Virus record (IMG/VR): IMGVR_UViG_3300035102_000435
DNA: 49,493 nucleotides
Strand: one strand, 5' to 3'
Source: a virus
Shown here: positions 8,305 to 44,996 of the stretch, piece after piece
Layout: each line of letters opens with the position of its first letter
How positions within the stretch are numbered: position 1 is the stretch's first letter
Translations under genes and position numbers: made by a program
Notes under the pieces: model-generated
Seen by the model: only the letters and a program-made list of their open reading frames with translations
What the model was told of the DNA's origin: nothing
Databases searched by the model: none

Positions 8305-8672
8305 ACATCAACAAAGAAATTGAAAAAATAATGAAAGATGATGATCAACCATTTATTCAGGTAAGAAGAAGATATACGGATAATGGTAAAAATAGAGGTT
8401 GGCATCTTGACAATAGATTGTCATTGAAAGCTCACGGTTTGATGGCTTGGTTGTGGTACGCAGTTGAAAGAACAGATGATTTGAAATTAAAATATTTAGC
8501 TTTAAAATTTGAGACCAAAGAAGAAGATATAAAAAAGTCAATAGATGAATTAATAGAAAAAGGTTATCTTCAAATTTCAAAAGTCCCAAATCCTAAGAAA
8601 GTATATCGGTTTGATATATTCAGAAATAAGTACAGAACAAGCAGCAGATACACTTCAAAAGATTTACTTTAG
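8301..8672 (+). CDS. Hypothetical protein (possible winged-helix)
   Basis: 123-aa ORF. Confidence 0.45.
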   Translation: MNINKEIEKIMKDDDQPFIQVRRRYTDNGKNRGWHLDNRLSLKAHGLMAWLWYAVERTDDLKLKYLALKFETKEEDIKKSIDELIEKGYLQISKVPNPKKVYRFDIFRNKYRTSSRYTSKDLL

Positions 8673-8674
8673 GA

Positions 8675-9052
8675 GTGAGCCAAATGGGAAATTTAAAATT
8701 AAAAAGAAATAGTGGGAAGATTACTTTTAAAAAATCAGAGGATAATAAAAATAGTGCAATGATTGCCGGCTGGATATCAGCTAAAAGGACCGGAATCTGG
8801 CTTAATCATATTAGAGGATTAGAAAATAGGTTTTTCGATATTGAAGAAAGACCAGAAATCAATGAAAATCACATTACTCTTTATGAGTCTGGCCAGATAA
8901 TTGGATGGATAGAAAAAGATTATAAAAAAGAAATTGAGGACATACTCTGGAAGCATCTAAAGCATTATACTCATAAACCGGCAGAAGAAAAAGAAGTTAA
9001 AAAAGAGATTAAAGAGGAGCCGGCAGAGTTTGGCCAACTGGCATTATTTTAA
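8675..9052 (+). CDS. Hypothetical protein
   Basis: 125-aa ORF. Confidence 0.45.
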   Translation: MSQMGNLKLKRNSGKITFKKSEDNKNSAMIAGWISAKRTGIWLNHIRGLENRFFDIEERPEINENHITLYESGQIIGWIEKDYKKEIEDILWKHLKHYTHKPAEEKEVKKEIKEEPAEFGQLALF

Positions 9053-9069
9053 TAGACAGGAGTGGAAAA

Positions 9070-9639
9070 ATGATTTTATCAGATCAAGAAATTATGAGAG
9101 CTCATACAGAACACAATATAATAAGTGATTTTAACCCGGACCAGGTGGAGCCGGCATCATACGACCTGAGGTTAGCAGACAAGATATTGCTGGAAAGAAA
9201 TTATTCAAGACCAATAGGAATGAATGAAGAGGTTGAATATATTCCGACATCAATCAATGACCGGCCACTTAATCCACAAGAATTTGTTTTAGGCAGCACA
9301 GAGGAATACATCTCATTGCCGGACAATCTGGCTGCATTTGTTACCGGCAAGTCTACAATCGGTAGAAAAGCAATAGAAGTTCATCAGACAGCTGCATGGA
9401 TTGATCCGGGGTTTCAGGGCAACATCACTTTAGAGATTATTAATAATTCTTCTAACAAAAGAAAACTTAAGGCCGGAGAGTTAATTGCTCAGATAGTCTT
9501 TTTTAAAGTGTCCGGCACAGTATTGGAACCTTACGATGGTAAATATCAAAATTCAGATGGTGTAATTGGCAGCTTGATAAATCAAAAAACTGAAATTAAA
9601 CCGCTCTTTATCGGTGGCCCGGGCCAGAAAGGAAATTAA
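9070..9639 (+). CDS. dcd: dCTP deaminase (dUTPase-fold family)
   Basis: 189 aa; motifs GKSTIGR and HQTAAWIDPGFQGNITLE match the dCTP deaminase family and align with E. coli Dcd over the full length, from memory. Confidence 0.75.
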   Translation: MILSDQEIMRAHTEHNIISDFNPDQVEPASYDLRLADKILLERNYSRPIGMNEEVEYIPTSINDRPLNPQEFVLGSTEEYISLPDNLAAFVTGKSTIGRKAIEVHQTAAWIDPGFQGNITLEIINNSSNKRKLKAGELIAQIVFFKVSGTVLEPYDGKYQNSDGVIGSLINQKTEIKPLFIGGPGQKGN

Positions 9640-9640
9640 A

Positions 9641-9784
9641 ATGAAAAATAAGTTAGCAATTTTATTTCTTTATCTGACAACAATGTTAGGTTATTCAATT
9701 TTATGGGAGACTCAGGAAGGTAGACTGTTTGCAGCTAAGTGGTTAGTAATTTCAGGTACTTTTATTTTAACCTTTAAAGAGTAG
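9641..9784 (+). CDS. Small membrane protein (paralog A)
   Basis: 47-aa ORF translated by hand; hydrophobic helix - ETQEGRLFAAKW - hydrophobic helix. Confidence 0.35.
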   Translation: MKNKLAILFLYLTTMLGYSILWETQEGRLFAAKWLVISGTFILTFKE

Positions 9785-9806
9785 AGTATAGAAAGGGGGT
9801 TATTAG

Positions 9807-9947
9807 ATGCCGGACTTTTTAAAACAGTTAATATTTTTAATCATAATGAATATAGCAGCATACAGAATAGCGAAAACAGAAGAAGGAAAAATATATTTAG
9901 CCAAATTTACATTGATTATTGCGTTTATTTTACTTATATCAATTTAA
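9807..9947 (+). CDS. Small membrane protein (paralog B)
   Basis: 46-aa ORF translated by hand; same architecture with KTEEGKIYLAKF between two hydrophobic helices. Confidence 0.35.
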   Translation: MPDFLKQLIFLIIMNIAAYRIAKTEEGKIYLAKFTLIIAFILLISI

Positions 9948-9959
9948 GGAGGAATTAAG

Positions 9960-10262
9960 ATGATGAAAAACATTGATAAACACGAACTATTTGTAGAAGC
10001 AGAAATAATGAGAAGGAATGATTCAGACTTAGTTTTATTTGTAAAAACACCAAAGAATGAAGAGATGATCATTGTACCTAATGAAGATATTCAAGAAAAA
10101 ATTGAATACATTGATAAAGTATATGATTTCAATTTAGATCACAGAGGAGCAAAGGGGGTTTTTATAATCGGGATAACTAATTTGAAAGAGTGGATCGAGG
10201 TGGTGACTGAAAATGGTTTTAAAGAAATCGGAATTAAAGCCTTATACTCGGATAAAGAGTGA
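9960..10262 (+). CDS. Hypothetical protein
   Basis: 100-aa ORF with AGGAGG upstream. Confidence 0.45.
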   Translation: MMKNIDKHELFVEAEIMRRNDSDLVLFVKTPKNEEMIIVPNEDIQEKIEYIDKVYDFNLDHRGAKGVFIIGITNLKEWIEVVTENGFKEIGIKALYSDKE

Positions 10263-10854
10263 ATTTAACTCAATAGAATTGCCAGAAGGATTTCATAAAG
10301 AATGGTTAGAAACAAAGCAATCTTTTAGAGATACGGTTATCAATGCCACAAAAGTACCTGCCAAATATTTATATATAAATGAGGAGGTGGAAGAATTGAC
10401 CGGGCCAGCACTAAAGGACGAAAAGATAATTTACAAAGATCAAGAAATGAACTATTATCATTTTATAGAAATGCTGATATCTAAATCATATAAATTAAAT
10501 GCAGCTATCTCTGCAGATAAAACTGGAATTGATCTAAGAGTAGTGGATTTAGAAATTTTAGGTCAGATAATATTAGATACTAATCGTTCAAATGAATTAC
10601 TTAAATTATCACATAAAAAGTTATATAATTTCATGGTTGAATTCTATTTTAAATTCAATTATTTTGATGAATTAAAAAGATATCAAAATAGAGATATTTA
10701 TCTCGGTAGAATTGAGATAGAGAATGATTTTAAAAAAATGATAAATAAATTTGAAACTGATCATGGTATGGATCTAAAGAAAGTTCTAATGGGCGCACTG
10801 GGCGTACCCTGGCATAAATATAAATATGAATTGTTCAAAAGAATAAAAACCTAG
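10213..10854 (+). CDS. Hypothetical protein (start uncertain)
   Basis: 213-aa ORF overlapping the upstream gene in another frame; the true start is probably internal. Confidence 0.4.
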   Translation: MVLKKSELKPYTRIKSEFNSIELPEGFHKEWLETKQSFRDTVINATKVPAKYLYINEEVEELTGPALKDEKIIYKDQEMNYYHFIEMLISKSYKLNAAISADKTGIDLRVVDLEILGQIILDTNRSNELLKLSHKKLYNFMVEFYFKFNYFDELKRYQNRDIYLGRIEIENDFKKMINKFETDHGMDLKKVLMGALGVPWHKYKYELFKRIKT

Positions 10855-10912
10855 ATCAAGACCGGCCGGGGGAAGTTCAAGAGCGATGGCCCGGACTATC
10901 GGGAGGTGAAAA

Positions 10913-11266
10913 ATGAATAAAGTATATTTCTTTTACAATGAAGAGGGGTATGGAAAATATGTAGCACACGAGTCTTTCAAAGAAGCTAAAGAAATAGCAT
11001 TGTTAAGCCCAGTTTTTGATATGCTTGAAAATCCATTCGTAGATATAAGAGGAAAATTAGTTAAAAGATATGATTATAGGGATGAAAAAGAATATATAGT
11101 TAAAACAAATACAGAAGGAATGTTAAGTACTCAAGAAATTGTAGATTTAGGGATAGCCTGGTGGCAATGTTCAGAATGCGGAACTGATGATTTGGAAATA
11201 GTTGATAGTGGCGAAAATTACAACTGTTTATCTTGCGGACATTCTGATGAAGTTCCTTATTATTAA
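10913..11266 (+). CDS. Hypothetical protein with C-terminal zinc ribbon
   Basis: 117-aa ORF; CSECG...CLSCGH motif. Confidence 0.45.
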   Translation: MNKVYFFYNEEGYGKYVAHESFKEAKEIALLSPVFDMLENPFVDIRGKLVKRYDYRDEKEYIVKTNTEGMLSTQEIVDLGIAWWQCSECGTDDLEIVDSGENYNCLSCGHSDEVPYY

Positions 11267-11319
11267 ATACAAGCTGGCCCGGGCATTTATTAAAAAAATT
11301 AAAATAGGAGGAAATTAAA

Positions 11320-11772
11320 ATGGCACAATATACTCAAGCCCCTGAGGTAGAAAATATTGCTAATAAATTAATAGAAAAATATCATAATCACCTACAAGGT
11401 TTTAAGATAATTTACTTATTTAGAGACAAAGCGATGAAATCAAAAGGAAAAGAGGTTTATGGTAAAGCATCAAAAGTACAATCTAAGTACCAGGCTATCA
11501 CTGGAGCAACATTTATCATTGAGATAGCTGAACCAGCATTTGCTTCAATGGACCACAAACATCAGGTAGCTTTAATAGATCATGAACTGATGCATTGCTT
11601 TATTGATGAAAATGATCAACCAACAATACTTTCTCATGACTTTGAAGGATTTAACAAGGAACTTAAGAGACATGGTTTCTGGGCTTCTGATCTGCAGATC
11701 ATGAAGAAGCAGCTGCAGCAGATGGAACTGCCTTTTAATGAAAAACCAGAGCTTAAGGTGGTGAGTGGGTAG
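11320..11772 (+). CDS. Putative HExxH metallopeptidase-like protein
   Basis: 150-aa ORF containing HELMH (HExxH zinc-binding motif); strong RBS GGAGG upstream. Confidence 0.5.
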   Translation: MAQYTQAPEVENIANKLIEKYHNHLQGFKIIYLFRDKAMKSKGKEVYGKASKVQSKYQAITGATFIIEIAEPAFASMDHKHQVALIDHELMHCFIDENDQPTILSHDFEGFNKELKRHGFWASDLQIMKKQLQQMELPFNEKPELKVVSG

Positions 11773-11987
11773 TGCCAATCAATCACAAGAATCTGGCCCG
11801 GGCCAGAGAAAAGAGCGGAAATACTAAAACATTTTTAGCAAAAAAATGCGGTGTAACAATAACTACCTATAGCAAGTGGGAAGATGGAGACACTGTCCCG
11901 GGAGTCGATAAAGCTAAGATACTTGCGGATATATATGAAACAACAGTTGACGTATTATTTTTCAGCAGAGTATTTAGACTAATTTGA
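11772..11987 (+). CDS. HTH (XRE-like) DNA-binding protein
   Basis: 71-aa ORF; HTH-like segment TFLAKKCGVTITTYSKWE; GTG start overlapping the upstream stop. Confidence 0.5.
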   Translation: MPINHKNLARAREKSGNTKTFLAKKCGVTITTYSKWEDGDTVPGVDKAKILADIYETTVDVLFFSRVFRLI

Positions 11988-11997
11988 GGTGAGGTAA

Positions 11998-12837
11998 TTG
12001 GATTTTAGATGCAGTTTAAGCAAATGGAGAACTAACAAAAGGTCGGCCAGGTTAACACTACTGGTCGGCCCCAAAGATGCACCAATGGATTTATATAACT
12101 TCGAAGACAAACCGCTCGATATTATTTTAGACAGCAAAGTTAAAATAAAAGGAGAAATCAAAAATATTGAGCAGCTGGTAAAAGGAAAAATTAAAATAGT
12201 GATTGTTACTGCTGAAGATTATAAAAAAGAAATTATTAGTGGTGGCCCGGGCCTTAAAAATGCTGAAAATATAAAAGTCACATTTTTAATTGATGCTGAT
12301 GAACAGGTTAAAAGAATGAACATGATCAGTGACCGGCAGAGAAGAAAAGCTTTTGCCACAATTGGAGATATTGCAGACAGTATTGGTTATGCCAAAAACG
12401 AGATGTATGAGAAGTTAAAAGAAAAATTCTCTGAGGTGACTGGTTATGGAGAAATAAGTCTTTCAGATTGTTCAAGGAAAACTGCAGAAGATTTTATTGA
12501 TTTCTGTATCAGAATTGGTTATGAATATGGTGTCGCCTGGGAAGAACATCCCAGAGAGAGAATGGACAATCTTTATAAGTGGCTGCGGTTATGCCTTGAT
12601 CAGAAAATTTGTGCTGTATCTGGCCGGCCGGGAAAAGAATATTTAATCGATAACTCCGGAGCTATAATTCATAGTCACCACACAGATGCAATAGGAATGG
12701 GACAAAACAGGCAAAAATTTGATGATAGTAAGCTTAAAAAAATATCTCTATCTGCGGAATATCATGTTGAAGCGCACAATATAGGCTGGGAATCTTTCAA
12801 AAATAAATATCATGTTGAGGGCATTATCTATCCGTAA
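11998..12837 (+). CDS. Hypothetical protein with C-terminal His/Cys-rich (HNH-like) region
   Basis: 279-aa ORF; C-terminal CAVSG...HSHHTDA...HVEAHN suggests a metal-binding nuclease motif. Weak call. Confidence 0.4.
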   Translation: MDFRCSLSKWRTNKRSARLTLLVGPKDAPMDLYNFEDKPLDIILDSKVKIKGEIKNIEQLVKGKIKIVIVTAEDYKKEIISGGPGLKNAENIKVTFLIDADEQVKRMNMISDRQRRKAFATIGDIADSIGYAKNEMYEKLKEKFSEVTGYGEISLSDCSRKTAEDFIDFCIRIGYEYGVAWEEHPRERMDNLYKWLRLCLDQKICAVSGRPGKEYLIDNSGAIIHSHHTDAIGMGQNRQKFDDSKLKKISLSAEYHVEAHNIGWESFKNKYHVEGIIYP

Positions 12838-12876
12838 CGGATTAGATGCTAGCCCGGTGATTGGAGGCTGATTTTT

Positions 12877-13290
12877 TTGGCTTGGAGAAATGTAAGCGAA
12901 AAACAAGCAAAAGATTTGATTAAGGAAAAGAGAAAAGGTGCCGGTGTTAATGTTTTAGAAGAGGAAGAACAGAAAAAGCTAGCTCAATATCTTGATTATA
13001 AATATATGGAAGGTGATTGGTGCCATGTGCCTAATGAAGGCGACCACAAAGTTCAGTATTATGTTAAACAAAAAACTTTAGGTGTTAAATCAGGCGTGCC
13101 GGATGCATTAATTTTCAAGCCGGTTGCCGGATATAATGGAATTGCTATTGAACTTAAGAGGTTGAAAGGTGGCCGGGTTAGCGAAAGCCAAAAGAGATGG
13201 CTTAAGAGGTTTAAAGAGAACGGTTGGGCTGTTAAGTTAGCAGAGGGAGCAGATGCTGCTATAGAATTTATTGAAGAACTGGAGGGATAA
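12877..13290 (+). CDS. VRR-NUC domain nuclease
   Basis: 137 aa; GVPDALIF...IELKRLKGGRVSESQKRWL resembles the PD-(D/E)XK VRR-NUC pattern, from memory. Confidence 0.6.
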   Translation: MAWRNVSEKQAKDLIKEKRKGAGVNVLEEEEQKKLAQYLDYKYMEGDWCHVPNEGDHKVQYYVKQKTLGVKSGVPDALIFKPVAGYNGIAIELKRLKGGRVSESQKRWLKRFKENGWAVKLAEGADAAIEFIEELEG

Positions 13291-34607: not shown

Positions 34608-34925
34608 ATGAAAGGATTTCCTAAAAAATTAAAGACGAAAAAAGATTATGAAAATATCGTCGATGATTTCGGCTACACTCAAAAAGTAAAAGAAGCTTAT
34701 CAGGCATTGTTAGAAACTGATCAGCATTATGTATTTGATAAAGAACTGGCAACTGAGGATGAAAGGACTGGCCCGCTCCCTGATTATAAAGTAATGAAAG
34801 AAGATGAACAGGAAACCGAGACAGTCAGAATTGTTCAGTACAAATTAGTAGATAACCCTGACTCAAAGCTAAAAGAGTTAGGTTTTACAGAATTCGAAGT
34901 TCAAGAGGTGATTGACTTATGCTAA
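34608..34925 (+). CDS. Hypothetical protein (tail fibre region)
   Basis: 105-aa acidic ORF. Confidence 0.35.
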   Translation: MKGFPKKLKTKKDYENIVDDFGYTQKVKEAYQALLETDQHYVFDKELATEDERTGPLPDYKVMKEDEQETETVRIVQYKLVDNPDSKLKELGFTEFEVQEVIDLC

Positions 34926-35956
34926 GTGTAGTAGGAGTAGATAGTCCTGCTTTTTATAATGCAGAGGGAAATATAGAAAAGACAGCAGGAGTCCAGGGAG
35001 TAGACATCCCGGCCTTGGCATTAAGAATTAATAGGCAAAACTTAAAAGTTGAATCAGCATCAGCACTAACTGCCGCAGATAATGATGGCAGTTTTTCTAG
35101 TTTTGCGATGGGTACTGATTATTATATCTATGCCTGTCAACCAGCAAGTGGTATTGAGCCAGATTTTGTGCTTTCAGCTAACTCTACTTATCCAGATGCA
35201 ATACCTTCCGGAGTTACACCCAGCGTTGATAATACCAGGAAGATTGGTGGCTTCCATTATGGACGAGTAAGGAACAGTTCAACAGCTTCTGATGTATCAG
35301 AAAGTATTGTACCTAACTCAGTCTGGGACCTTGTTAATCGTCCAAAGTGCTCCCCTGAGGGGATGGCTAAGGTCGGCAACCTTTGGGTTGATATTTATCT
35401 AGCATCTGATGATGGTAACGGTGGTGTTGAATCAAAATATAATGCAACACCTATTACCGGTACTGAGGGCTTAAGCTGGTACAGTTTTGCAGAGAGGTTT
35501 GTGAAGGTAGATAAGCGGATGGCATCAATGTCAGAGTGGACAGCATTAGCTCAGGGCAGCCCTCAGGGTAATGATGGCGACAATGTCAATGCCTGGTCTG
35601 CTACAAGTAACAGTGGTAGAACATCTACTGGTTCTGTAACTAATGCTATCAGTAATTATAATATTGTCGATTGTGCCGGTAATGTTTGGGAATGGTTAGA
35701 TGAGGTTTCAATTAGACAGGATTCTACAACCTGGCAATGGTATGATCCAGCAACTGACTTTAATGAAACAATGGAGTCTGGATGGGACCAGCTTGGTGAT
35801 ATGTACTTACCTAATGCAGATGGTCTTTCAGCTTTCCGCGCCGGTGGCCATTGGGATGATGGTGTTCGCTGTGGTGCTCGCGCGTTGAGCCTGATCGACA
35901 AGCCTTGGTACGTGTACTCGACTTTCGGGTCTCGTGGTGTCTGTGATCCTCTGTAA
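34919..35956 (+). CDS. DGR target: tail fibre/receptor-binding protein with C-terminal C-type-lectin/FGE-like variable domain
   Basis: 345 aa; GNLWVDIY and GNVWEWLDE motifs typical of the FGE/CLec fold; the last ~38 codons form the variable repeat. Confidence 0.8.
   Translation: MLSVVGVDSPAFYNAEGNIEKTAGVQGVDIPALALRINRQNLKVESASALTAADNDGSFSSFAMGTDYYIYACQPASGIEPDFVLSANSTYPDAIPSGVTPSVDNTRKIGGFHYGRVRNSSTASDVSESIVPNSVWDLVNRPKCSPEGMAKVGNLWVDIYLASDDGNGGVESKYNATPITGTEGLSWYSFAERFVKVDKRMASMSEWTALAQGSPQGNDGDNVNAWSATSNSGRTSTGSVTNAISNYNIVDCAGNVWEWLDEVSIRQDSTTWQWYDPATDFNETMESGWDQLGDMYLPNADGLSAFRAGGHWDDGVRCGARALSLIDKPWYVYSTFGSRGVCDPL
35833..35945 (+). repeat. DGR variable repeat (VR)
   Basis: 113 bp aligned without gaps to 36359..36471; the 11 differences all fall at positions where the template has adenine. 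Confidence 0.85.
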
Positions 35957-36039
35957 TTCGTGATTTGATAATCTGTTTTTTTATTAAGGTGTGAATATTT
36001 ATCAAAAATCTAACAATACATCAAAAAGTATATGATCTA

Positions 36040-36336
36040 ATGGTTTGGTTTTTCCCGATCGTGGATAACTTTCCGAAGTATGAAAAATTTGTACTTTGCA
36101 CTCAAATAAAGAACTCTATATTAGATATTTCAAAAATCATTATTGAAGCAAATAAAACCAGAGGTAGTAAAGTGAGGTTTCTGCATCGGGTAGATGTCCG
36201 GCTTGAGCAATTAAGAATGCTAATCAGGTTTGCTCATGAAAGGCATTACTTAAACCATTCTAAATATGAAAATGTATCTAAAAAAGTTGATGAAATAGGA
36301 CGCATGCTTGGGGGTTGGATCAAGTCATGCGATTAA
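36040..36336 (+). CDS. avd: Accessory variability determinant (Avd-like four-helix-bundle protein)
   Basis: 98-aa ORF between VR and TR; the C-terminus (VDEIGRMLGGWIKS) resembles the Bordetella phage Avd C-terminus (EVGRILGSWIAR), from memory. Confidence 0.7.
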   Translation: MVWFFPIVDNFPKYEKFVLCTQIKNSILDISKIIIEANKTRGSKVRFLHRVDVRLEQLRMLIRFAHERHYLNHSKYENVSKKVDEIGRMLGGWIKSCD

Positions 36337-36358
36337 ATATTTGGGGTTAAGAGCGTTT

Positions 36359-36471
36359 TTTCCACGCCGGTGGCAATTGGAATGATGGTGTTCACTGTGG
36401 TGCTCGCGCGTTGAACCTGAACAACAAGCCTTGGAACGTGAACTCGAATATCGGGTCTCGTGGTGTCTGTG
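36359..36471 (+). repeat. DGR template repeat (TR)
   Basis: Non-coding copy of the VR; 22 adenines, many in AAC/AAT triplets in the VR-aligned frame, 11 of which differ in the VR. Confidence 0.85.
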
Positions 36472-36495
36472 CTCTTCATGCAAAAATCTTTCAGA

Positions 36496-36519
36496 CAGTA
36501 GTGGTTACGGCCACTACTG
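36496..36519 (+). other. Hairpin in the TR-RT spacer
   Basis: Perfect 9-bp inverted repeat CAGTAGTGG / CCACTACTG around a 6-nt loop, 25 nt downstream of the TR. Confidence 0.4.
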
Positions 36520-36888
36520 CAGTGTTTCTAGAAATGAGGAACAGGCTTTTAATCCCTGCTGAGATACTTTTTTAAAGTCAATCCAGCAAAAAATTTAGAT
36601 TGCTAGCCAGGCAGCAAGTATTGAAAAATAGAAAGTTGTCACAGTCAGCGACTGCCCGTTCTCATTTGAGCGGGCTTTTAATTTCCACCCATAAATAGAG
36701 AAAGTGGTGATAATATTCCAAAAAAATTTAAGAATCTATATCCAAAAATATACGATTTTGAGAACCTATACATTTCTTATGAAAATGCTAGAAAATCTAA
36801 ACGATATACTAACCAGGTCCTTAAATTTACTAATCAGTTAGAAAGCAATTTAATTAACATTCAAAATCAGCTCATCTGGAAAGAATAT

Positions 36889-37827
36889 TTGCCTGGCGAA
36901 TATCATCAGTTCTATGTCTATGAACCTAAGCAGCGGTTAGTTATGGCACTTCCTTTTGAGGATAGAGTGGTCCAGTGGGCTGTATATAGAAATTTAAATC
37001 CTATATTTGATAAAACTTTTTATGAACATAGCTGCGCCTGCCGGATTGGTAAAGGTACTCATTATGCAGCGGACCAGCTGCAGCACTGGATGAGAAAACT
37101 AGATAGAAGCCCAGGGGAAACTTATTATCTCAAAGCTGATGTTGCAAAATATTTTTACAGGATAGATCACAGAACTCTTTTCGAAATCATCAAAAGAAAG
37201 ATTAGCTGCAGAGATACTTTAGAGCTGATCTGGAAGATCATTAAAAAAGATGATGGTGAATTCGGAATACATCTCGGTGATCATTACTTTGAAAGAGATA
37301 AAATCAAAGGAATTGGAATCCCGATTGGTAACTTAACCAGTCAATTATTTGCTAATGTTTATCTCGACTTCATGGATAAATTTATAAAACATAATTTACG
37401 GGCTAAACACTACGTCAGATATATGGACGATTTTGTTATCCTGGGAAAATCAAAGAAAGAACTACATACAATCAGACAGGAGATAGAAATATTTCTTGCT
37501 GATTATTTAAAACTTGAACTTAACAACAAAACTACTGTTGATAATATCTGGAATGGAATAGATTTCTGCGGATATGTCACTTATCCACCATATAGAAAAT
37601 TGAGAAAAAGTACAAAAAGGAAACTCAAAAGACGGCTTAAATATCTTCAGAAAAAGTATTATAAAGAGGAGGTGGAGATCAATGAAATAAATGCCAGCGT
37701 TCAAAGTTATCTTGGAATATTAAAACATTGTGACAGCCATAATCTGACAATGTCGGTTATTGGCCAGTTAGAGGATGAAATACTTAATCAACTAGATTTA
37801 GAGGACGTTCGAGAACAAAGAAGTTGA
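36889..37827 (+). CDS. DGR reverse transcriptase (N-terminus likely extends upstream)
   Basis: YMDD catalytic motif (YVRYMDDFVILG) and the DGR-type IGNLTSQLFANVY motif; coordinates are from the first canonical start, but conserved N-terminal sequence continues in frame back to about 36700. Confidence 0.9.
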   Translation: MPGEYHQFYVYEPKQRLVMALPFEDRVVQWAVYRNLNPIFDKTFYEHSCACRIGKGTHYAADQLQHWMRKLDRSPGETYYLKADVAKYFYRIDHRTLFEIIKRKISCRDTLELIWKIIKKDDGEFGIHLGDHYFERDKIKGIGIPIGNLTSQLFANVYLDFMDKFIKHNLRAKHYVRYMDDFVILGKSKKELHTIRQEIEIFLADYLKLELNNKTTVDNIWNGIDFCGYVTYPPYRKLRKSTKRKLKRRLKYLQKKYYKEEVEINEINASVQSYLGILKHCDSHNLTMSVIGQLEDEILNQLDLEDVREQRS

Positions 37828-40511: not shown

Positions 40512-40518
40512 TTATTAA

Positions 40519-40552
40519 CCTCTGGGGCTTTAAGCCCTGGGGGTATTTTTTT
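40519..40552 (+). terminator. Rho-independent terminator candidate
   Basis: GC-rich stem (CCTCTGGGGC / GCCCTGGGGG, with G-U pairs) and loop TTTAA, followed by TATTTTTTTA. Confidence 0.5.
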
Positions 40553-40591
40553 ATGCAAAAAAACTTTTTTAAAAAATATTGATAAAAACCC

Positions 40592-40620
40592 TTGACAAAA
40601 CACATGCATGCATGTATAAT
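40592..40620 (+). promoter_or_regulatory. Consensus sigma-70-type promoter
   Basis: TTGACA (40592..40597), 17-nt spacer containing CATGCATGCATG, TATAAT (40615..40620); sits about 30 nt upstream of the 40653 ORF. Confidence 0.6.
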
Positions 40621-40652
40621 AAAGATACAAGATAAGGAAAGGGGTAAAACAA

Positions 40653-41342
40653 ATGGCTAGACAAATTTGTGTTTACGTTAGTGATTGGCAGTTTGAGAAA
40701 TTAAAAAAAGAAGATAACAAGTCAGAGGTTGCAAGAAAGGCATTTGATTTATATTATAAAAAGGAGGGAAAAGAAATGAAAATTATTGAAATTGTAGAAT
40801 TAACAAAAAGTGGTGTAAAAGTTAGCGATCAGGACAATCCAATGGCGGTTAGATATTTTAATGACAATGGAAATTTACCAGATGGAAATTTTGACGAAAA
40901 CCAAATAGCTGGCGAATGGGTGCATCTTGAAGGACAACACGCAAATTTTGAAATTTATGCTTATAGATCTATAGACAATAGTACACTCGTTCCAGCTGAT
41001 ATTTTCAAAGAAAAATTAATTAGTCAAATTGCAGGCGCCAGAATTACATTAACTAAAGCTGAATTAGAAGAAAAAGCAGAAATTAATGAAGTTTGGGAAG
41101 AAATAGCGACCGAAAGCATCCAGGCCACAAAAGAAAAAACTTTTTCAAAAGATGGTTGGAGAGATATCGAATTAACTGATGATTATCTATATCAGCTAGA
41201 ATTTGATGAGGGTGGCATAAGATATTATGAAGGTACAGAAGAAAGATATTTAGAGGAACCGGTCGGTGAAGAAGGATGGGATGAACCACAATGGTCTCCT
41301 AAAGAAATTAAAATGCTAATAGATGGGCTTGAAAATGAATAA
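40653..41342 (+). CDS. Hypothetical protein with N-terminal ribbon-helix-helix-like segment fused to an acidic domain
   Basis: 229-aa ORF; the N-terminal ~40 aa look CopG/Arc-like; an in-frame ATG at about 40775 with its own AAGGAGGG could give a separate product. Confidence 0.45.
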   Translation: MARQICVYVSDWQFEKLKKEDNKSEVARKAFDLYYKKEGKEMKIIEIVELTKSGVKVSDQDNPMAVRYFNDNGNLPDGNFDENQIAGEWVHLEGQHANFEIYAYRSIDNSTLVPADIFKEKLISQIAGARITLTKAELEEKAEINEVWEEIATESIQATKEKTFSKDGWRDIELTDDYLYQLEFDEGGIRYYEGTEERYLEEPVGEEGWDEPQWSPKEIKMLIDGLENE

Positions 41343-41916
41343 ATTAATTATACCTGGTCGTATTCTAGGAATATTCTGGACTACGGCCAGCTGGTCCTCT
41401 ACAGAAAAATCTATTCAAATAACTAATAAGGACTATGAAATTGTTAAAAAAGTGCAAAGTTATCTTTCTGAAATTAATTTTGAATATACTATATACCAAG
41501 GACCAACAGAAAATAAGCGCCCAGGTTATGAATATGATTATTACAGAATGAAAATATACAATAGTGATTTCATTGACCTGTTAAGAAATGAGTACAACTG
41601 GCGAGGGAGGAGAGAAAAAAAGAGATATTACCCTAATTTCGATTCTTATCAGCAGGTAGTTGAATTTTTGAGATATTATATTAATTCTCAGCACACTTCT
41701 GCTGAAATATCAGTTAATTGGGGCGACGGAAAGCATAAGCGATTAAAGGTATTTGTTAACAAAAATTTTGCAGATATTCTAAATGAAAGAATAAGCGATA
41801 TTGTAGGGGTTAATGAAAACAAAATATACAAACATTCTCAATCAGATGTATTAATGTATCTTTTTTATCAAAGCAAAAAAGATGTAGAATTAATATTAGA
41901 TTTTATAAATAAATAG
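41323..41916 (+). CDS. Hypothetical protein
   Basis: 197-aa ORF, Tyr/Arg-rich. Confidence 0.45.
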   Translation: MGLKMNKLIIPGRILGIFWTTASWSSTEKSIQITNKDYEIVKKVQSYLSEINFEYTIYQGPTENKRPGYEYDYYRMKIYNSDFIDLLRNEYNWRGRREKKRYYPNFDSYQQVVEFLRYYINSQHTSAEISVNWGDGKHKRLKVFVNKNFADILNERISDIVGVNENKIYKHSQSDVLMYLFYQSKKDVELILDFINK

Positions 41917-41978
41917 AGGTTAATTTTAATTTATATGCAACTATATAAATAATAACAATAATAGAGGAGTGTTTAATT

Positions 41979-42626
41979 ATGATCAAGAAAATAATTTTAG
42001 TTTTTATTGGTATAATTATAATTGGCTTCGCAACTGGAATATTAACGGTTGATTCAGGAGAAAACGAAAAGGATAAAATACAACCGGCCACTGCAGAAAG
42101 CAACCAGAGTTCTCAAGAATTAAACTATACTATAATTGATGATGAACTAAATTTATATGATGATGTTTTTAGATACAATTATCATGTAGTTGTAGAAGGA
42201 GAACCAGGAGTGAAAGAATTAAAAAATATTGCTCAAAAAGTAACTGAAAAAGCTAAAAATGATAAAGAATTTAATGCTTTAAGAATTTCTTTTTATGATC
42301 GAAAAGAGTACGTTGGCCATGGAATAACTTTGGGAAATGCTACATTTGCTTTAAATGGAGACTGGGGAGAAGCTCAAAATGTTGTTAGCGGAGATTATGA
42401 TGTAATGGAATTTAAATATAATTTATTAGAAAAAAATTGGAATAAAAAACTTACTGATCAAGAGGTTGAAATTTGGTCTTACTATAAAAAATATAGTGAA
42501 TCAACTAATCAAAGTCAAGATGAAATTTTCGAAACAGCTGCTAAAAAGTTCAGTATTACTGCTGCAGAAGTAAAAGATATTGTTTTTAAAAAAGTATTTT
42601 GGAATGGAAATAATAAAACAAAATAG
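41979..42626 (+). CDS. Hypothetical membrane-anchored protein
   Basis: 215 aa with an N-terminal transmembrane/signal anchor; last gene before the convergent integrase. Confidence 0.45.
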   Translation: MIKKIILVFIGIIIIGFATGILTVDSGENEKDKIQPATAESNQSSQELNYTIIDDELNLYDDVFRYNYHVVVEGEPGVKELKNIAQKVTEKAKNDKEFNALRISFYDRKEYVGHGITLGNATFALNGDWGEAQNVVSGDYDVMEFKYNLLEKNWNKKLTDQEVEIWSYYKKYSESTNQSQDEIFETAAKKFSITAAEVKDIVFKKVFWNGNNKTK

Positions 42627-42647
42627 GTTCTTAGATTCAGGCCATAA

Positions 42648-44189
42648 CTATGGTCTGTAATCTTCAATATTAATTGTGGATTCAAAACGGTACGCCCCAC
42701 CTCCACCATCAACATCCACAATATAATCTATGGTTATATTGTTTTCATATACGGTGACTTTTTTAACGAAAGTTTTGACGATCCTTCGCTGATCTTCAAG
42801 GCTTTCGTTTTTAATATTTCTATACTTCATTAATTCTTGAACAATTCTTTCTTTTGATGGAGAATTATTCTCGGCTTGAAACCTTGCTTCCTCAAGGTAC
42901 ATTTCATAATCTGCTTTTTCATTTTCAAGAGAGTTTAATTTTTCATTCATTGAAGGCTGATATAAACCTTCTGCTACTGCTTCAGTAATGTTATCAATTT
43001 TTTTCTGAACTTCTTTTAAATGTTTTTCAAATCTTTTAATGTCAGAATTTATTTCTTTATTTTCAGTTTTAGCAAATTTGTATACCTTGGCAGCTATATT
43101 TTTGATTGCAGCAGGCGAAAATAATTCTTCTATCATATTATCTAAAACTGCACCTTCTACAAAATCTTTACTTATTGAAGGCATGTCACAATCTCTTTTT
43201 CTCTTTCTGGTAGAACATTCATAAGAAGTGTAGACAGTTTTATTTTTTCCAGCAATTCTTCTATTTCCAACCATTGCTCCCTCGCATTTTCCACACTTAA
43301 TTAAACCGGCAAGAATATAGATTTCTTTAGCTTTATTATTAACAGACTTTTTATTACCTTCCATTCTTTTTTTCACCTTCCTCCAGGTATGATCATCAAT
43401 TATTCTTGGCATTCCACCTTCAATTCTAATAATTTTCTTTTTATCTTTTGACTTATGGTGATTTCTCTTTCCAGCCTTTTTACTTACAGATCTGTTAAAA
43501 ATATAAACGCCCCGATACTTTTCATTAATCAAAATATCATGTAAACTAGGCCTGCTAAAATTACCACCAGTCTGAGTCTTGAAACCCCTCTTTTTAAGCT
43601 CGTCAATTATTTCTGAATAACCATGGCCATCGGCATACATTTCAAAAATTAACTTCACACTTTTAGCCTGCTCTTCATTGATAATGTAAGTCTTATCTTC
43701 TGCAACATCGAACCCAAGGGGTGCTAAACCTCCATTATGTTTGCAATTTAAAGCGTTCTCTTTCATTCCTTTTTTAACTTCTCTGCGTAAATTAGCAGAA
43801 TAATATTCATTATACCCTTCCAATACAGATTCTAATATTATAGATTCAGGACTACCATCCAAATTTTCTAATGCAGAAATAACTTCGACACCATTCTCTC
43901 TTAATTTTCTTTTATATACAGCGGAATCATATCTATTTCTAGCAAAACGATCTAGTTTATGAACAATCACAAAATCAAACAAATCTTTTTTACTGTCGCT
44001 GACCATGTCTAAAAAAGCTGGGCGATCAGAAGTTGTAGCTGATTTCGCTTTATCAGTATAAATTTTATTTATTTTTATATTATTTTTGGCTGCGTACTCC
44101 TTAATTTCTCTAACCTGAGCATCTATTGATTCTTCTCTTTGGTTACTGGAGCTAAAACGTGCATAAATTGCAGCTGTTGGCTTACTCAT
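42648..44189 (-). CDS. Large serine recombinase (integrase)
   Basis: 513 aa; N-terminal resolvase-type catalytic region (AAIYARFSSSNQ with the catalytic Ser), recombinase domain, Cys-rich zinc ribbon and coiled-coil C-terminus; RBS AGGAGG. Confidence 0.9.
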   Translation of the reverse strand: MSKPTAAIYARFSSSNQREESIDAQVREIKEYAAKNNIKINKIYTDKAKSATTSDRPAFLDMVSDSKKDLFDFVIVHKLDRFARNRYDSAVYKRKLRENGVEVISALENLDGSPESIILESVLEGYNEYYSANLRREVKKGMKENALNCKHNGGLAPLGFDVAEDKTYIINEEQAKSVKLIFEMYADGHGYSEIIDELKKRGFKTQTGGNFSRPSLHDILINEKYRGVYIFNRSVSKKAGKRNHHKSKDKKKIIRIEGGMPRIIDDHTWRKVKKRMEGNKKSVNNKAKEIYILAGLIKCGKCEGAMVGNRRIAGKNKTVYTSYECSTRKRKRDCDMPSISKDFVEGAVLDNMIEELFSPAAIKNIAAKVYKFAKTENKEINSDIKRFEKHLKEVQKKIDNITEAVAEGLYQPSMNEKLNSLENEKADYEMYLEEARFQAENNSPSKERIVQELMKYRNIKNESLEDQRRIVKTFVKKVTVYENNITIDYIVDVDGGGGAYRFESTINIEDYRP

Positions 44190-44205: not shown

Positions 44206-44877
44206 TTATAACTTATGCATAACTTCTATAGCTTTACCAATAATTCTAGCCTGATCATTTTTTATAATGATATTTTCATAATTAGGATTCTCAGGTTGCA
44301 AAACCCATGAACCGTTAGTTTTTATTACTCTTTTTAAAGTTGCTTCATCAGAATTAACCATTACTACTGCTATCTCATTATTTTCAACTGTACTCTGACG
44401 TCTGATCAAAACAAGATCCCCCTCGTTAATACCTGCATTTATCATACTGTCACCTTTGACTTTAAGAAAGAAATATTGACCATTTGAAACCCTATCAGCT
44501 GGTACTTTTTTGTAGAATAAAATATTTTGTTCAGCCAAAACTGGCTGCCCTGCAGAAATTGTTCCGATAACCGGAATAGATTCGACTTCTTTTTTTATGA
44601 TGTCATCATAATTATATTTAGATTTTGTTTCTTTTAACTCATTAACTTTTCCAGATATGTAACCCGCTTTAATCATCAGAATGCCATCCGCAATATTTAA
44701 AGCTTGCTCTAATTTTTTGATAATTTGTGGAGATGGAGGGTTTTTAGTTTTGCCATTTAATATTCTAGAAATGTAAGAGTGATCTATATCAGCCTGTCTT
44801 CCCAACTCTCTGATAGAACTTATTGCCGAATCATCAATTTCTTTTTGAAGAGTTTCTCTAAAATCTTTTATACTCAT
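44206..44877 (-). CDS. CI-like repressor (HTH plus S24 LexA-type peptidase domain)
   Basis: 223 aa; N-terminal HTH and C-terminal S24 motifs (GDSM...KRV); divergent from a Cro-like gene. Confidence 0.85.
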   Translation of the reverse strand: MSIKDFRETLQKEIDDSAISSIRELGRQADIDHSYISRILNGKTKNPPSPQIIKKLEQALNIADGILMIKAGYISGKVNELKETKSKYNYDDIIKKEVESIPVIGTISAGQPVLAEQNILFYKKVPADRVSNGQYFFLKVKGDSMINAGINEGDLVLIRRQSTVENNEIAVVMVNSDEATLKRVIKTNGSWVLQPENPNYENIIIKNDQARIIGKAIEVMHKL

Positions 44878-44902: not shown

Positions 44903-44972
44903 TATGTTAATTATAATATATATGTTGACTATTTGCAACTTAAAATATAAATAAATTAAATTTTATGTTGAC
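44903..44972. promoter_or_regulatory. Candidate operator repeats (TATGTTGAC-like) in the genetic switch region
   Basis: TATGTTGAC at 44921..44929 and 44964..44972, plus a partial copy TATGTTA at 44903; each overlaps a TTGAC -35-like hexamer. Confidence 0.4.
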
Positions 44973-44996
44973 AAAAAACCACAAGTGATATATAAT
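44968..44996 (+). promoter_or_regulatory. Rightward early promoter (PR-like)
   Basis: TTGACA (44968..44973), 17-nt spacer, TATAAT (44991..44996), about 30 nt upstream of the Cro-like gene. Confidence 0.55.

What the first reader, a model, noticed from the sequence alone, without database searches (positions are those of the whole stretch)
40519..42626. Self-contained accessory operon between lysis genes and integrase
A terminator (40519..40552) and a textbook promoter (40592..40620, with a CATGCATGCATG palindrome in the spacer) bracket three uncharacterised genes: a ribbon-helix-helix-like N-terminus fused in frame to an acidic domain with an internal AAGGAGGG plus ATG, a 197-aa Tyr/Arg-rich protein, and a membrane-anchored protein. 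The layout and location next to the attachment region are typical of prophage cargo expressed during lysogeny, such as defence, exclusion or toxin-antitoxin-like functions. I recognise none of the three proteins.
Basis: inference. Interest (0 to 1): 0.6.

Follow-up and report, generated by a model that had tools for sequence, protein, structure and literature searches.

The report
Self-regulated accessory cassette at prophage end
The last 2 kb of this temperate phage is a real, separately promoted three-gene cassette whose first protein probably shuts off its own very strong promoter; its gene content is swapped between related phages, and what the three proteins do for the phage is still unknown.

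Summary
A strong intrinsic terminator (40518-40552) ends the lysis operon. A perfect TTGACA-N17-TATAAT promoter (40592-40620) follows, one of only two in 49.5 kb (0.075 expected). Its spacer holds the unique palindrome ACATGCATGCATGT.

All three genes are under purifying selection (dN/dS 0.10-0.28).
- ORF1 is a 41-residue ribbon-helix-helix (RHH) module fused in frame to two uncharacterised acidic domains. A conserved internal AAGGAGG-ATG marks the natural start of the second module.
It lacks the catalytic acid in both motifs.
- ORF3 is an N-terminally anchored, DUF4875-like protein.

A lysogen junction contig puts the att crossover at about 42708, 82 nt after ORF3. The cassette is therefore the outward-reading right end of the prophage.

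Across relatives the DNA-binding module and the spacer operator change together: RHH-A with (CATG)n, RHH-B with CTACA repeats, HTH_59 with ACACG-N4-CGTGT. The cargo shuffles independently. This argues for negative autoregulation, as in P22 Arc-Ant or the Acr-Aca fusions AcrIE10 and AcrIF25.

No defence, toxin-antitoxin, structural or replication homology was found. The role (counter-defence or lysogenic conversion) is unresolved. I rate it a new variant of a known kind, of moderate interest.

The parts
40518..40552 (+). Intrinsic terminator that closes the late/lysis operon
   Evidence: 12-bp stem plus T run. dG -19.7 kcal/mol, z -3.5. Conserved with compensatory changes in relatives.
40592..40620 (+). 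Perfect sigma-70-type promoter (-35 at 40592-40597, 17-nt spacer, -10 at 40615-40620)
   Evidence: 12 of 12 consensus positions. One of two in the window against 0.075 expected. Conserved in all relatives, including distant L027, L062 and L066.
40602..40615 (.). Palindrome ACATGCATGCATGT in the promoter spacer; inferred operator of the cassette's RHH module
   Evidence: Unique in the window. (CATG/GCAT)n lies in the spacer wherever an RHH-A gene follows and the upstream DNA is available. Cassettes with a different DNA-binding module carry a different spacer repeat.
40621..40652 (+). Conserved leader with the ribosome-binding site (ACAAGATAAGGAAAGGGG, 40627-40644)
   Evidence: Near-identical leader in cassettes with a different first gene or a different RHH type.
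40653..40775 (+). ORF1 module A: 41-residue ribbon-helix-helix DNA-binding module
   Evidence: pN/pS 0.10-0.16 with 8-14 synonymous differences, so it is translated. 11 of 14 family members hit RHH_1. Free-standing 41-44 aa versions exist.
40761..40778 (+). Internal Shine-Dalgarno AAGGAGGG plus ATG (40776) at the module A/B junction
   Evidence: AAGGAGG is conserved in seven diverged loci (window, L001, L005, L014, L015, L026, L068) although synonymous sites elsewhere have changed. 9 of 10 AAGGAGG sites in the window precede a start codon. Stand-alone module B proteins begin exactly at this Met.
40776..41000 (+). ORF1 module B (residues 42-116), uncharacterised, with a DNGxLPDGNFDE motif
   Evidence: Occurs alone (P0042, P0043) or with other partners. 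No Pfam family. Model confidence is below 50.
41001..41342 (+). ORF1 module C (residues 117-229), acidic alpha/beta domain of unknown fold family
41335..41916 (+). ORF2: monomeric two-domain LAGLIDADG-fold protein without the catalytic acids; 8-nt overlap with ORF1
   Evidence: Pfam LAGLIDADG_3, 29.9 bits against a cut-off of 22.5. Model pLDDT 88, pTM 0.84. Best PDB matches are bI3 maturase, the WhiA N-domain and I-Tsp061I. Motif 1 is GIFWTTASW in all 18 of 20 homologues that cover that region; motif 2 is YYINSQH here and YYIDDQG in most. dN/dS 0.17-0.27.
41979..42626 (+). ORF3: protein with one N-terminal membrane anchor and a conserved DUF4875-like outer domain
   Evidence: DUF4875 E 2.5e-4, below the cut-off. 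phrog_35881 E 1e-11. Linker variable, domain conserved. dN/dS 0.15-0.21. In L067 it sits directly behind a different RHH cassette.
42633..42663 (.). 13-bp hairpin between the convergent ORF3 and integrase genes; possibly a weak bidirectional terminator
   Evidence: dG about -14.5 kcal/mol for the centroid, z -1.6 for the 91-nt stretch, no U tract.
42697..42710 (.). attP crossover region (…CCACCTCCACCA|), inside the 3' end of the serine-integrase gene
   Evidence: L013 carries an ORF1 100% identical to the window's. Over the aligned stretch (42590 onwards) it is identical to the window up to 42708, then diverges. Same breakpoint in lysogen contigs L070/L071 against phage-form L069/L072.
42648..44189 (-). 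Large serine recombinase (integrase); context only, not part of the operon
   Evidence: Resolvase + Recombinase + Zn_ribbon_recom.

Best explanation
This is a modular, self-repressing accessory-gene cassette that forms the outward-reading right end of the prophage.

**Proposed mechanism**
- The late terminator insulates the cassette from the lysis operon.
- A consensus promoter gives very high initial transcription.
- The first reading frame encodes a 41-residue RHH module. As a dimer or a dimer of dimers, it binds the (CATG)3 palindrome between -35 and -10 and shuts the promoter down.
- The expected result is a burst on DNA entry or induction, and a low homeostatic level in lysogens.
- The RHH is fused in frame to the first cargo (modules B and C). 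A conserved internal Shine-Dalgarno/ATG probably also yields free B-C protein (188 aa).
- ORF2 is translationally coupled to ORF1. It is a LAGLIDADG-fold protein that has lost the catalytic acids, so it most likely binds a specific nucleic-acid site without cutting.
- ORF3 is displayed outside the cytoplasmic membrane.

**What is shown**
- The anatomy, purifying selection, modularity, position at attR, and co-variation of the DNA-binding module with the operator.

**What is inferred**
- Repression, dual translation products, non-cleaving DNA binding by ORF2, and the biological role.

**My estimates**
- RHH autoregulation: about 0.8.
- Cytoplasmic cargo acts in counter-defence or host manipulation (Acr-Aca-like): about 0.35.
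- Cargo is lysogenic-conversion or exclusion functions: about 0.3.
- The overall confidence of 0.6 refers to the cassette architecture plus autoregulation, not to a specific biological role.
For: **Promoter and operator**
- The promoter is perfect and the palindrome is unique in the window.
- In relatives the RHH-A module is 44-98% identical to the window's. It is linked to a (CATG/GCAT)n-containing spacer of a TTGACA-N17-TATAAT promoter in the window clade and in L027, L061, L062 and L066.
- The same pattern has only 14 hits in 2.9 million viral contigs. Four of them are these cassettes.

**Swapped pairs at the same genomic position**
- RHH-B occurs with TGCTACA/TACAAT direct repeats about 11 bp apart, free-standing in L067 and fused to cargo in L069.
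- An HTH_59-acidic fusion occurs with TACACG-N4-CGTGTA in a Halocella prophage.

**RHH is translated and constrained**
- pN/pS is 0.10-0.16.

**Cargo modules recombine freely**
- RHH-A is fused to at least 9 different partners, and free 41-44 aa forms exist.
- The C' domain is found behind both RHH-A and RHH-B.
- The D domain is found behind both RHH-A and HTH_59.

**Internal start**

**Published precedents**
- AcrIE10 is an N-terminal RHH plus an Acr domain. It represses its own promoter through an inverted repeat overlapping -10 and -35 (PMC13530269).
- Aca14 is an RHH Aca whose inverted repeat overlaps -10. AcrIF25 has an RHH that is replaced by an HTH in a homologue (PMC13551039).

**Retention without lysogeny**
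- A relative that lost ORF2, ORF3, the integrase and the repressor keeps the promoter and ORF1.
Against: - No binding or expression data exist.
- The window's own RHH segment does not reach any Pfam RHH model by itself, and its model is low-confidence.
- No cargo protein resembles a known anti-defence, defence or conversion protein. No anti-defence profile library was available.
- ORF3 is extracytoplasmic, and a secreted OMP-like gene sits in the Halocella cassette. Both fit lysogenic conversion better than counter-defence.
- L014 retains ORF1, but this may be a recent neutral deletion: a 75-nt remnant of ORF2 is still there.
- In distant loci (L060-L066) the RHH is not the first gene of the operon.
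Confidence: 0.6

Rival explanations
1. First reader's view. This is a moron expressed from the prophage that benefits the lysogen, through superinfection exclusion, anti-phage defence or envelope modification. ORF3 would be the effector at the membrane. The RHH would simply keep expression at a tolerable level.
For: - The cassette is the outward-reading end of the integrated prophage.
- The cassette promoter lacks the ATGTTGAC repeat seen at the immunity region, so it is probably not under the S24 repressor.
- ORF3 is membrane-anchored with a conserved outer domain.
- In L067, ORF3 is the only cargo of an RHH cassette.
- The Halocella cassette ends with a secreted protein that has a C-terminal Phe.
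Against: - No PADLOC hit for any of the three proteins.
- ORF1 and ORF2 are cytoplasmic, and ORF1 persists in a phage without a lysogeny module.
- A 12/12 consensus promoter with a built-in repressor is more than steady low expression requires.
Confidence: 0.3
2. Type II toxin-antitoxin pair. ORF1 would be an RHH antitoxin with an acidic neutralising domain. ORF2 would be a basic LAGLIDADG toxin. The complex would autoregulate through the palindrome.
For: - The gene order is DNA-binding acidic protein (pI 4.5) followed by a basic protein (pI 9.1) with an 8-nt overlap.
- The operator is palindromic and lies in the promoter.
- Weak Pfam hits of family members to VapB, CopG and RelB antitoxin RHH models.
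Against: - ORF2 relatives (55-78% identical) follow unrelated cargo domains: P0010-type, C', and HTH_59-D.
- ORF1 occurs without ORF2.
- ORF2 has no catalytic acid in either motif.
- No toxin family hit in Pfam or PADLOC.
Confidence: 0.06
3. ORF2 is a free-standing homing endonuclease gene that inserted next to the att site. The mosaicism of ORF1 would be a by-product of homing-associated recombination. The three genes would have no common function.
For: - LAGLIDADG fold and Pfam match.
- ORF2 is present in some relatives and absent in others.
- Mosaic breakpoints lie inside ORF1.
Against: - The catalytic acid is missing from motif 1 in all 18 of 20 homologues that cover that region, and from motif 2 in the window clade.
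- Strong purifying selection over the full length.
- In all five arrangements seen, it is translationally coupled to a preceding gene that encodes a DNA-binding fusion.
- The best structural matches include the non-nuclease members bI3 maturase and WhiA.
Confidence: 0.07
4. Arc-Ant-like immunity circuit. The ORF1 cargo would be an antirepressor that inactivates CI-type repressors, either the phage's own or those of resident prophages. The RHH would limit it to a short burst.
For: - The layout matches P22 immI (my own knowledge): a strong promoter, an operator between -35 and -10, and the RHH gene first in the operon.
Against: - Nearly the same ORF1 (86-87% identical) sits in phages with three different repressor types: a 223-aa S24, a 211-aa S24, and an HTH plus M78 peptidase pair.
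- No second Mnt-like repressor is present to keep it silent in lysogens.
- No similarity to Ant or Bro domains.
Confidence: 0.07

Closest known systems
Bifunctional Acr-Aca fusion proteins: AcrIE10 and AcrIF25 (N-terminal RHH); AcrIIA1, AcrIIA13-15 and AcrIF24 (HTH)
   Same: - A small N-terminal DNA-binding domain is fused to an effector domain.
- An inverted repeat overlaps the core promoter of the protein's own operon.
- The DNA-binding domain can be exchanged (RHH for HTH) on the same effector domain. This is seen here for the D and C' domains (PMC13530269, PMC13551039).
   Different: - No sequence or fold similarity to any known Acr.
- No CRISPR inhibition has been shown.
- Here a conserved internal ribosome-binding site suggests the effector is also made on its own.
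- The cassette also carries a LAGLIDADG-fold gene and a membrane protein.
Aca14, the RHH-type anti-CRISPR-associated repressor (PMC13551039)
   Same: - An RHH repressor is encoded inside an accessory or anti-defence operon.
- It has a conserved inverted repeat at the -10 region.
   Different: - Aca14 is free-standing (66 aa), is usually the last gene, and comes from Proteobacteria.
- Its operator is AT-rich.
- No detectable homology to the module here.
Phage P22 immI: the Pant-arc-ant operon (own knowledge)
   Same: - The RHH repressor is the first gene of an operon driven by a strong promoter.
- The operator lies between -35 and -10.
- The expression logic is a burst followed by shut-off.
   Different: - Arc is not fused to Ant.
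- P22 has a second RHH (Mnt) for silencing in lysogens.
- The cargo here does not track the immunity type.
Non-catalytic LAGLIDADG proteins: the WhiA N-terminal domain and the bI3 maturase
   Same: - Monomeric two-domain LAGLIDADG fold with degenerate motifs.
- They are the top structural matches to ORF2.
   Different: - ORF2 has no C-terminal HTH (unlike WhiA) and no intron context (unlike maturases).
- It is phage-borne and sits in an accessory cassette.
- Sequence identity to these proteins is only 12-15%.
Prophage morons and lysogenic-conversion genes next to att (lambda bor/lom, Sie/Ltp-type exclusion proteins; own knowledge)
   Same: - Own promoter.
- Placed between the lysis genes and att.
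- Variable content between related phages.
- A membrane or secreted protein is among the cargo.
   Different: - Has a built-in autoregulator with a consensus promoter.
- No homology to known exclusion proteins.

Membership tests
Ribbon-helix-helix (MetJ/Arc/CopG) DNA-binding domain | Match to RHH profiles | tested here: inconclusive
   The window segment alone gives no Pfam hit at E<=1. However, 11 of 14 aligned family members hit RHH_1 (best E 8.3e-5) and 8 hit RHH_3. A PDB profile search gives weak hits to the RHH proteins HP0222, a CopG-family regulator and AvtR.
Ribbon-helix-helix (MetJ/Arc/CopG) DNA-binding domain | About 40-45 residues arranged as strand-helix-helix | tested here: inconclusive
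   The model shows helices 11-18 and 23-37 after an unstructured residues 1-10. pLDDT is 39-60, and a monomer cannot form the intermolecular sheet. Free-standing homologues are 41-44 aa.
Acr-Aca-type self-repressed anti-defence operon | A DNA-binding protein is encoded in the operon, with an inverted repeat at the operon's own core promoter | tested here: met
   The operator type changes together with the DNA-binding module type.
Acr-Aca-type self-repressed anti-defence operon | At least one operon gene is a known or demonstrated inhibitor of a defence system | not testable with these tools
   No anti-defence profile library was available. Pfam, PHROGs, NCBIfam, PDB and BFVD give nothing informative.
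LAGLIDADG homing endonuclease | Two alpha-beta-beta-alpha-beta-beta-alpha domains packed through the LAGLIDADG helices, plus a Pfam match | tested here: met
   PF14528 scores 29.9 bits against a cut-off of 22.5. Model pLDDT 88. 94 PDB matches at E<=1e-3; the listed top 50 are all LAGLIDADG proteins.
LAGLIDADG homing endonuclease | A catalytic Asp or Glu at the C-terminal end of each LAGLIDADG helix | tested here: not met
   Motif 1 is GIFWTTASW, with Thr at the catalytic position in all 18 of 20 homologues that cover that region. Motif 2 is YYINSQH here (Ser), whereas most relatives have YYIDDQG (helix ends).
LAGLIDADG homing endonuclease | Mobility: presence/absence at an otherwise conserved target site, or an intron or intein context | tested here: inconclusive
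   ORF2 is absent in L026 and L067, and deleted in L014. These differences come with larger module swaps, and no clean empty target site was seen.
Type II toxin-antitoxin system | A cognate pair: the neutralising domain and the toxin are inherited together, and the toxin belongs to a toxin family | tested here: not met
   ORF2 relatives pair with unrelated upstream domains. There is no toxin-family hit.
Known anti-phage defence systems (PADLOC-DB 2.0) | Profile match of any component | tested here: not met
   0 families at E<=1 for all three proteins.
DUF4875 (PF16175) | Score above the Pfam gathering threshold | tested here: not met
   21.2 bits against a cut-off of 25, covering residues 47-198 over nearly the whole model. 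This suggests distant similarity only. phrog_35881 scores E 1e-11.
Phage moron | An independent promoter, insulation from the neighbouring operon, and variable presence among related genomes | tested here: met
   No terminator of the cassette's own lies downstream. In related lysogens a host terminator follows attR.

The most novel reading that the evidence does not exclude
Phages of halophilic anaerobes may carry a previously undescribed 'plug-and-play' effector system. In it, a tiny RHH or HTH repressor module is repeatedly fused in frame to interchangeable effector domains from novel families. Each junction would double as a ribosome-binding site, so both a DNA-tethered and a free form of the effector are made. 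A domesticated, catalytically dead LAGLIDADG protein would be a translationally coupled partner with a new, non-nuclease role in phage-host conflict.
Probability: 0.2. Interest if true: 0.7.

Novelty: new variant of a known kind. Interest (0 to 1): 0.5.

Why it matters
**Guilt-by-association handle.** If the regulatory reading is right, a conserved promoter-operator-RHH backbone flags a set of at least nine uncharacterised cargo domains in phages of Halanaerobiales-like hosts. This is the same route by which Aca genes led to new anti-CRISPRs.

**Extends known fusions.** It would take the recently described RHH-Acr fusion principle (AcrIE10, AcrIF25) to a distant phage group.

**A testable twist.** An internal start may make a free effector alongside a repressor-tethered one.

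**A domesticated LAGLIDADG protein.** ORF2 is a LAGLIDADG-fold protein kept under purifying selection without its catalytic acids. It would be a candidate sequence-specific DNA or RNA binder with a new role.

**If the cargo is ordinary.** If the genes turn out to be plain lysogenic-conversion genes, the finding is a tidy but ordinary moron.

Tried and rejected
- **Nucleotide and protein searches of 50,697 GenBank phages.** No match for the region, ORF1 or ORF2. ORF3 has only a 27%-identical hypothetical protein in Clostridium phage c-st.
- **PDB sequence searches** with profiles of ORF1, ORF2 and ORF3. Nothing meaningful.
- **DNA-mimic idea based on acidity.** Rejected as evidence, because the whole phage proteome is shifted towards acidic pI.
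- **Locating attP through a close integrase relative in reference genomes.** The best hit was only 46% identical. The site was found instead through metagenomic lysogen junctions.
- **CATG repeats as a methylation or restriction-linked switch.** CATG is only mildly under-represented (O/E 0.77), and I did not scan the window's genes for a methyltransferase. Not supported and not pursued.
- **A structured RNA in the region.** Rfam gave nothing credible.
- **Module B match to a 1952-aa protein.** This is a cadherin/RTX protein that shares the DxNDN-like motif. I treat it as motif similarity, not homology.
- **ORF2 as a recombination directionality factor.** Unlikely, because the same family occurs with both tyrosine and serine integrases.
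Full report
**Context**

The window is a circularly permuted genome of a temperate phage of about 49.5 kb and 33% G+C.
- Early and replication genes run from about 45000 across the window ends.
- Packaging and structural genes follow from about 16600.
- Next come a diversity-generating retroelement, then a holin (37891), an Amidase_3 endolysin (38349) and small membrane proteins up to 40511.
- After the finding lie a large serine recombinase (42648-44189, minus strand) and an HTH/Peptidase_S24 repressor (44206-44877, minus strand). Both face a perfect early promoter at 44968.
- No GenBank phage resembles the region.
- The only named organism with a relative of any of the three genes is Halocella sp. 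SP3-1, which has a prophage ORF2 homologue at 55% identity. The host is therefore probably a member of the Halanaerobiales. This is an inference.

**Check of the observation**

All elements are present at the stated coordinates.
- *Terminator.* A 12-bp stem plus T run, dG -19.7 kcal/mol, and better than all 200 shuffles.
- *Promoter.* A 12/12 consensus with a 17-nt spacer. Only two such sites exist in the window on either strand, against 0.075 expected.
- *Palindrome.* ACATGCATGCATGT (40602-40615) is unique.
- *Layout.* The terminator and promoter both lie upstream of the genes. Downstream of ORF3 there is only a hairpin without a U tract.
- *Coding status.* All three reading frames evolve under purifying selection against relatives (dN/dS 0.10-0.28). 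The first 42 codons of ORF1 taken alone also do (pN/pS 0.10-0.16, with 8-14 synonymous differences). The RHH-like segment is therefore translated and is not a leader.

**ORF1 is three modules**

A sensitive profile search found only 50 cluster representatives among 1.8 billion proteins. They split cleanly into three parts.
- *Module A (residues 1-41).* It exists as a free 41-44 aa protein (P0077, P0082, P0084; also L063 and L064). More often it is fused in frame to at least nine unrelated, mostly acidic partners.
- *Module B (residues 42-116).* It exists alone (P0042, P0043), starting exactly at the internal Met.
- *Module C (residues 117-229).* It exists alone (P0039) or directly behind an RHH (P0044, P0052).

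Evidence on each module:
- Module A is an RHH by family-level evidence. 11 of 14 members hit RHH_1, although the window copy does not on its own.
- Every fusion junction encodes a purine-rich Shine-Dalgarno-like peptide followed by Met.
- In the window the junction is AAGGAGGG-N7-ATG. AAGGAGG is conserved in seven diverged loci (window, L001, L005, L014, L015, L026, L068), even though synonymous sites elsewhere have changed.
- In this genome 9 of 10 AAGGAGG sites precede a start codon.
- I therefore infer two products: the 229-aa fusion and a 188-aa B-C protein.
- No Pfam, NCBIfam, PHROG-annotated or PADLOC family matches B or C.
- Acidity is not diagnostic, because the whole proteome is acid-shifted.

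**ORF2 is a LAGLIDADG-fold protein without catalytic acids**

- It passes the Pfam LAGLIDADG_3 threshold.
- It models at pLDDT 88 as two alpha-beta-beta-alpha-beta-beta-alpha domains.
- Every match in the listed top 50 PDB hits is a LAGLIDADG protein. The best are the bI3 maturase, the WhiA N-terminal domain and I-Tsp061I.
- In the 20 homologues, the position of the catalytic Asp/Glu in motif 1 is always Thr where the region is covered (18 of 20; GIFWTTASW).
- In motif 2 most relatives have Asp (YYIDDQG), but the window clade has Ser (YYINSQH).
- The protein is nevertheless conserved over its full length, with invariant Lys, Arg, Tyr and Trp residues and dN/dS of 0.17-0.27.
- Its start (ATG 41335) overlaps the ORF1 stop by 8 nt.
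- The same tight coupling to a preceding gene for a DNA-binding fusion is seen in all five arrangements found:
  - RHH-A-B-C
  - RHH-A-B-C'
  - RHH-A-X
  - RHH-B-C'
  - HTH_59-D
- I conclude it is a non-cleaving, probably sequence-specific nucleic-acid-binding protein. That conclusion is an inference.

**ORF3**

- It has a single N-terminal anchor, a variable linker and a highly conserved outer domain.
- It is distantly DUF4875-like, below the Pfam threshold, and matches phrog_35881.
- In L067 it is the sole cargo behind a different, free-standing RHH.

**Position at the attachment site**

- Contig L013 carries an ORF1 identical to the window's. Over the aligned stretch it is identical to the window up to base 42708 (…CCACCTCCACCA) and then diverges.
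- A related phage shows the same breakpoint. L069 and L072 continue into a serine recombinase that is 71% identical to the window's. L070 and L071 continue into host genes (MscS channel, chromate transporter).
- The crossover therefore lies inside the 3' end of the integrase gene, 82 nt after ORF3.
- In the lysogen the cassette is the last 2.1 kb of the prophage and is transcribed towards the host.
- In relatives with a tyrosine integrase, a tRNA-like 3' segment lies about 110 nt downstream of the ORF2 homologue.

**Regulatory logic**

The backbone of late terminator, consensus promoter and leader is conserved across relatives. What sits in the spacer changes together with the DNA-binding module.

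| DNA-binding module | Spacer element | Loci |
|---|---|---|
| RHH-A | (CATG/GCAT)2-3.5 | window clade, L027 (RHH 51% identical, different cargo), L061, L062, L066 |
| RHH-B | TGCTACA/TACAAT direct repeats about 11 bp apart | L067 (free), L069 (fused to C') |
| HTH_59-acidic fusion | TACACG-N4-CGTGTA, plus a second CACG-N4-CGTG copy in the leader | Halocella prophage |

- A scan of 2.9 million viral contigs for a consensus promoter with CATGCATG in the spacer gave only 14 hits. Four of them are these cassettes.
- This co-variation is the main argument that the module represses its own promoter.
- The cassette promoter lacks the ATGTTGAC repeats of the immunity region, so it is probably independent of the S24 repressor.

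**Comparison with known systems**

- *Closest in logic.* P22 Pant-arc-ant (my own knowledge) and the Acr-Aca systems.
  - AcrIE10 is an N-terminal RHH plus an Acr domain that represses its own promoter (PMC13530269).
  - Aca14 is an RHH Aca with an inverted repeat over -10 (PMC13551039).
  - AcrIF25 carries an RHH that is replaced by an HTH in a homologue (PMC13551039). The same swap is seen here for domains D and C'.
- *Membership in the Acr-Aca class.* It cannot be claimed, because no cargo is a known inhibitor.
- *Toxin-antitoxin reading.* It fails the cognate-pair test.
- *Active homing endonuclease.* It fails the catalytic-residue test.
- *Antirepressor reading.* It is weakened because near-identical ORF1 proteins sit with three different repressor types.
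- *Lysogenic conversion or exclusion.* It remains a serious rival, mainly because of ORF3 and the attR-proximal, outward orientation.

**Verdict**

- The feature is real and the anatomy is as described.
- 'Defence or toxin-antitoxin' is unsupported.
- The added value of this analysis is fourfold:
  - identifying ORF2;
  - demonstrating modular fusions of a DNA-binding module to cargo, with co-varying operators;
  - evidence for an internal translation start;
  - the exact prophage end.
- I rate it a new variant of a known kind (a self-repressed phage accessory or anti-defence-type operon), of moderate interest.

Noticed in passing
window 34919-37827: A diversity-generating retroelement. It comprises an Mtd-like target gene (34919-35956), a variable repeat at its 3' end (35833-35951), a template repeat (36359-36477, 89% identical) and a reverse transcriptase (36889-37827). 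Relatives also carry a bAvd gene between the target gene and the reverse transcriptase.
   Followed up: partly
window 42648-42710 and L013, L069-L072: The att crossover lies inside the coding 3' end of the serine-integrase gene (the …DGGGG… codons). Integration therefore separates about the last 20 codons from the gene. The host arm in L070 resembles the phage arm (…TCAATATCCACAATATAAT), and a host terminator follows attR.
   Followed up: partly
window 44914-44996: The immunity region has a second perfect promoter (44968-44996) and a repeated TATGTTGAC motif (44921-44929 and 44964-44972) overlapping the -35 regions. These are probably operators of the S24 repressor.
   Followed up: no
L014 1700-1940: A relative in which a deletion runs from codon 25 or so of the ORF2 homologue to the early promoter. 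It removes ORF2, ORF3, the integrase and the repressor, so this is likely an obligately lytic derivative. It keeps the cassette promoter and ORF1.
   Followed up: partly
L001 2440-2500; L005 7366-7430: Relatives with a tyrosine integrase carry a tRNA-like 3' segment on the minus strand, about 110 nt downstream of the ORF2 homologue. By eye it looks like the anticodon arm to the CCA end of a tRNA-Leu(CAA). Rfam gives only a weak tmRNA/tRNA-clan hit. This is presumably their attP.
   Followed up: partly
promoter spacers in window 40598-40614, L001-L007, L014, L026: The number of CATG/GCAT units in the spacer varies from 2 to 3.5 between close relatives, while the spacer length stays at 17 nt. 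Single-base changes shift the centre of the palindrome.
   Followed up: partly
window 40848-40900 (ORF1 residues 66-83): The module B motif FNDNGNLPDGNFDE resembles the DxNDN calcium-binding motif of cadherin repeats. It caused an 11-fold match to a 1952-aa cadherin/RTX protein (P0056). It may be a metal-binding loop.
   Followed up: no
L016 (Halocella sp. SP3-1, CP032760.1) 8600-12910: The analogous cassette in a cultured genome is followed by a secreted 212-aa protein ending in Phe (OMP-like), two small HTH genes and a ParM/ALP-like actin gene. The element may be maintained or segregated like a plasmid-prophage.
   Followed up: no
L001 996-1202; L005 5715-5948: In relatives with a tyrosine integrase, a basic 68-77 aa protein (MKIKIYLVTKNNGNQDN…) is inserted between the cassette promoter and the RHH gene. 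This is one more cargo slot.
   Followed up: no
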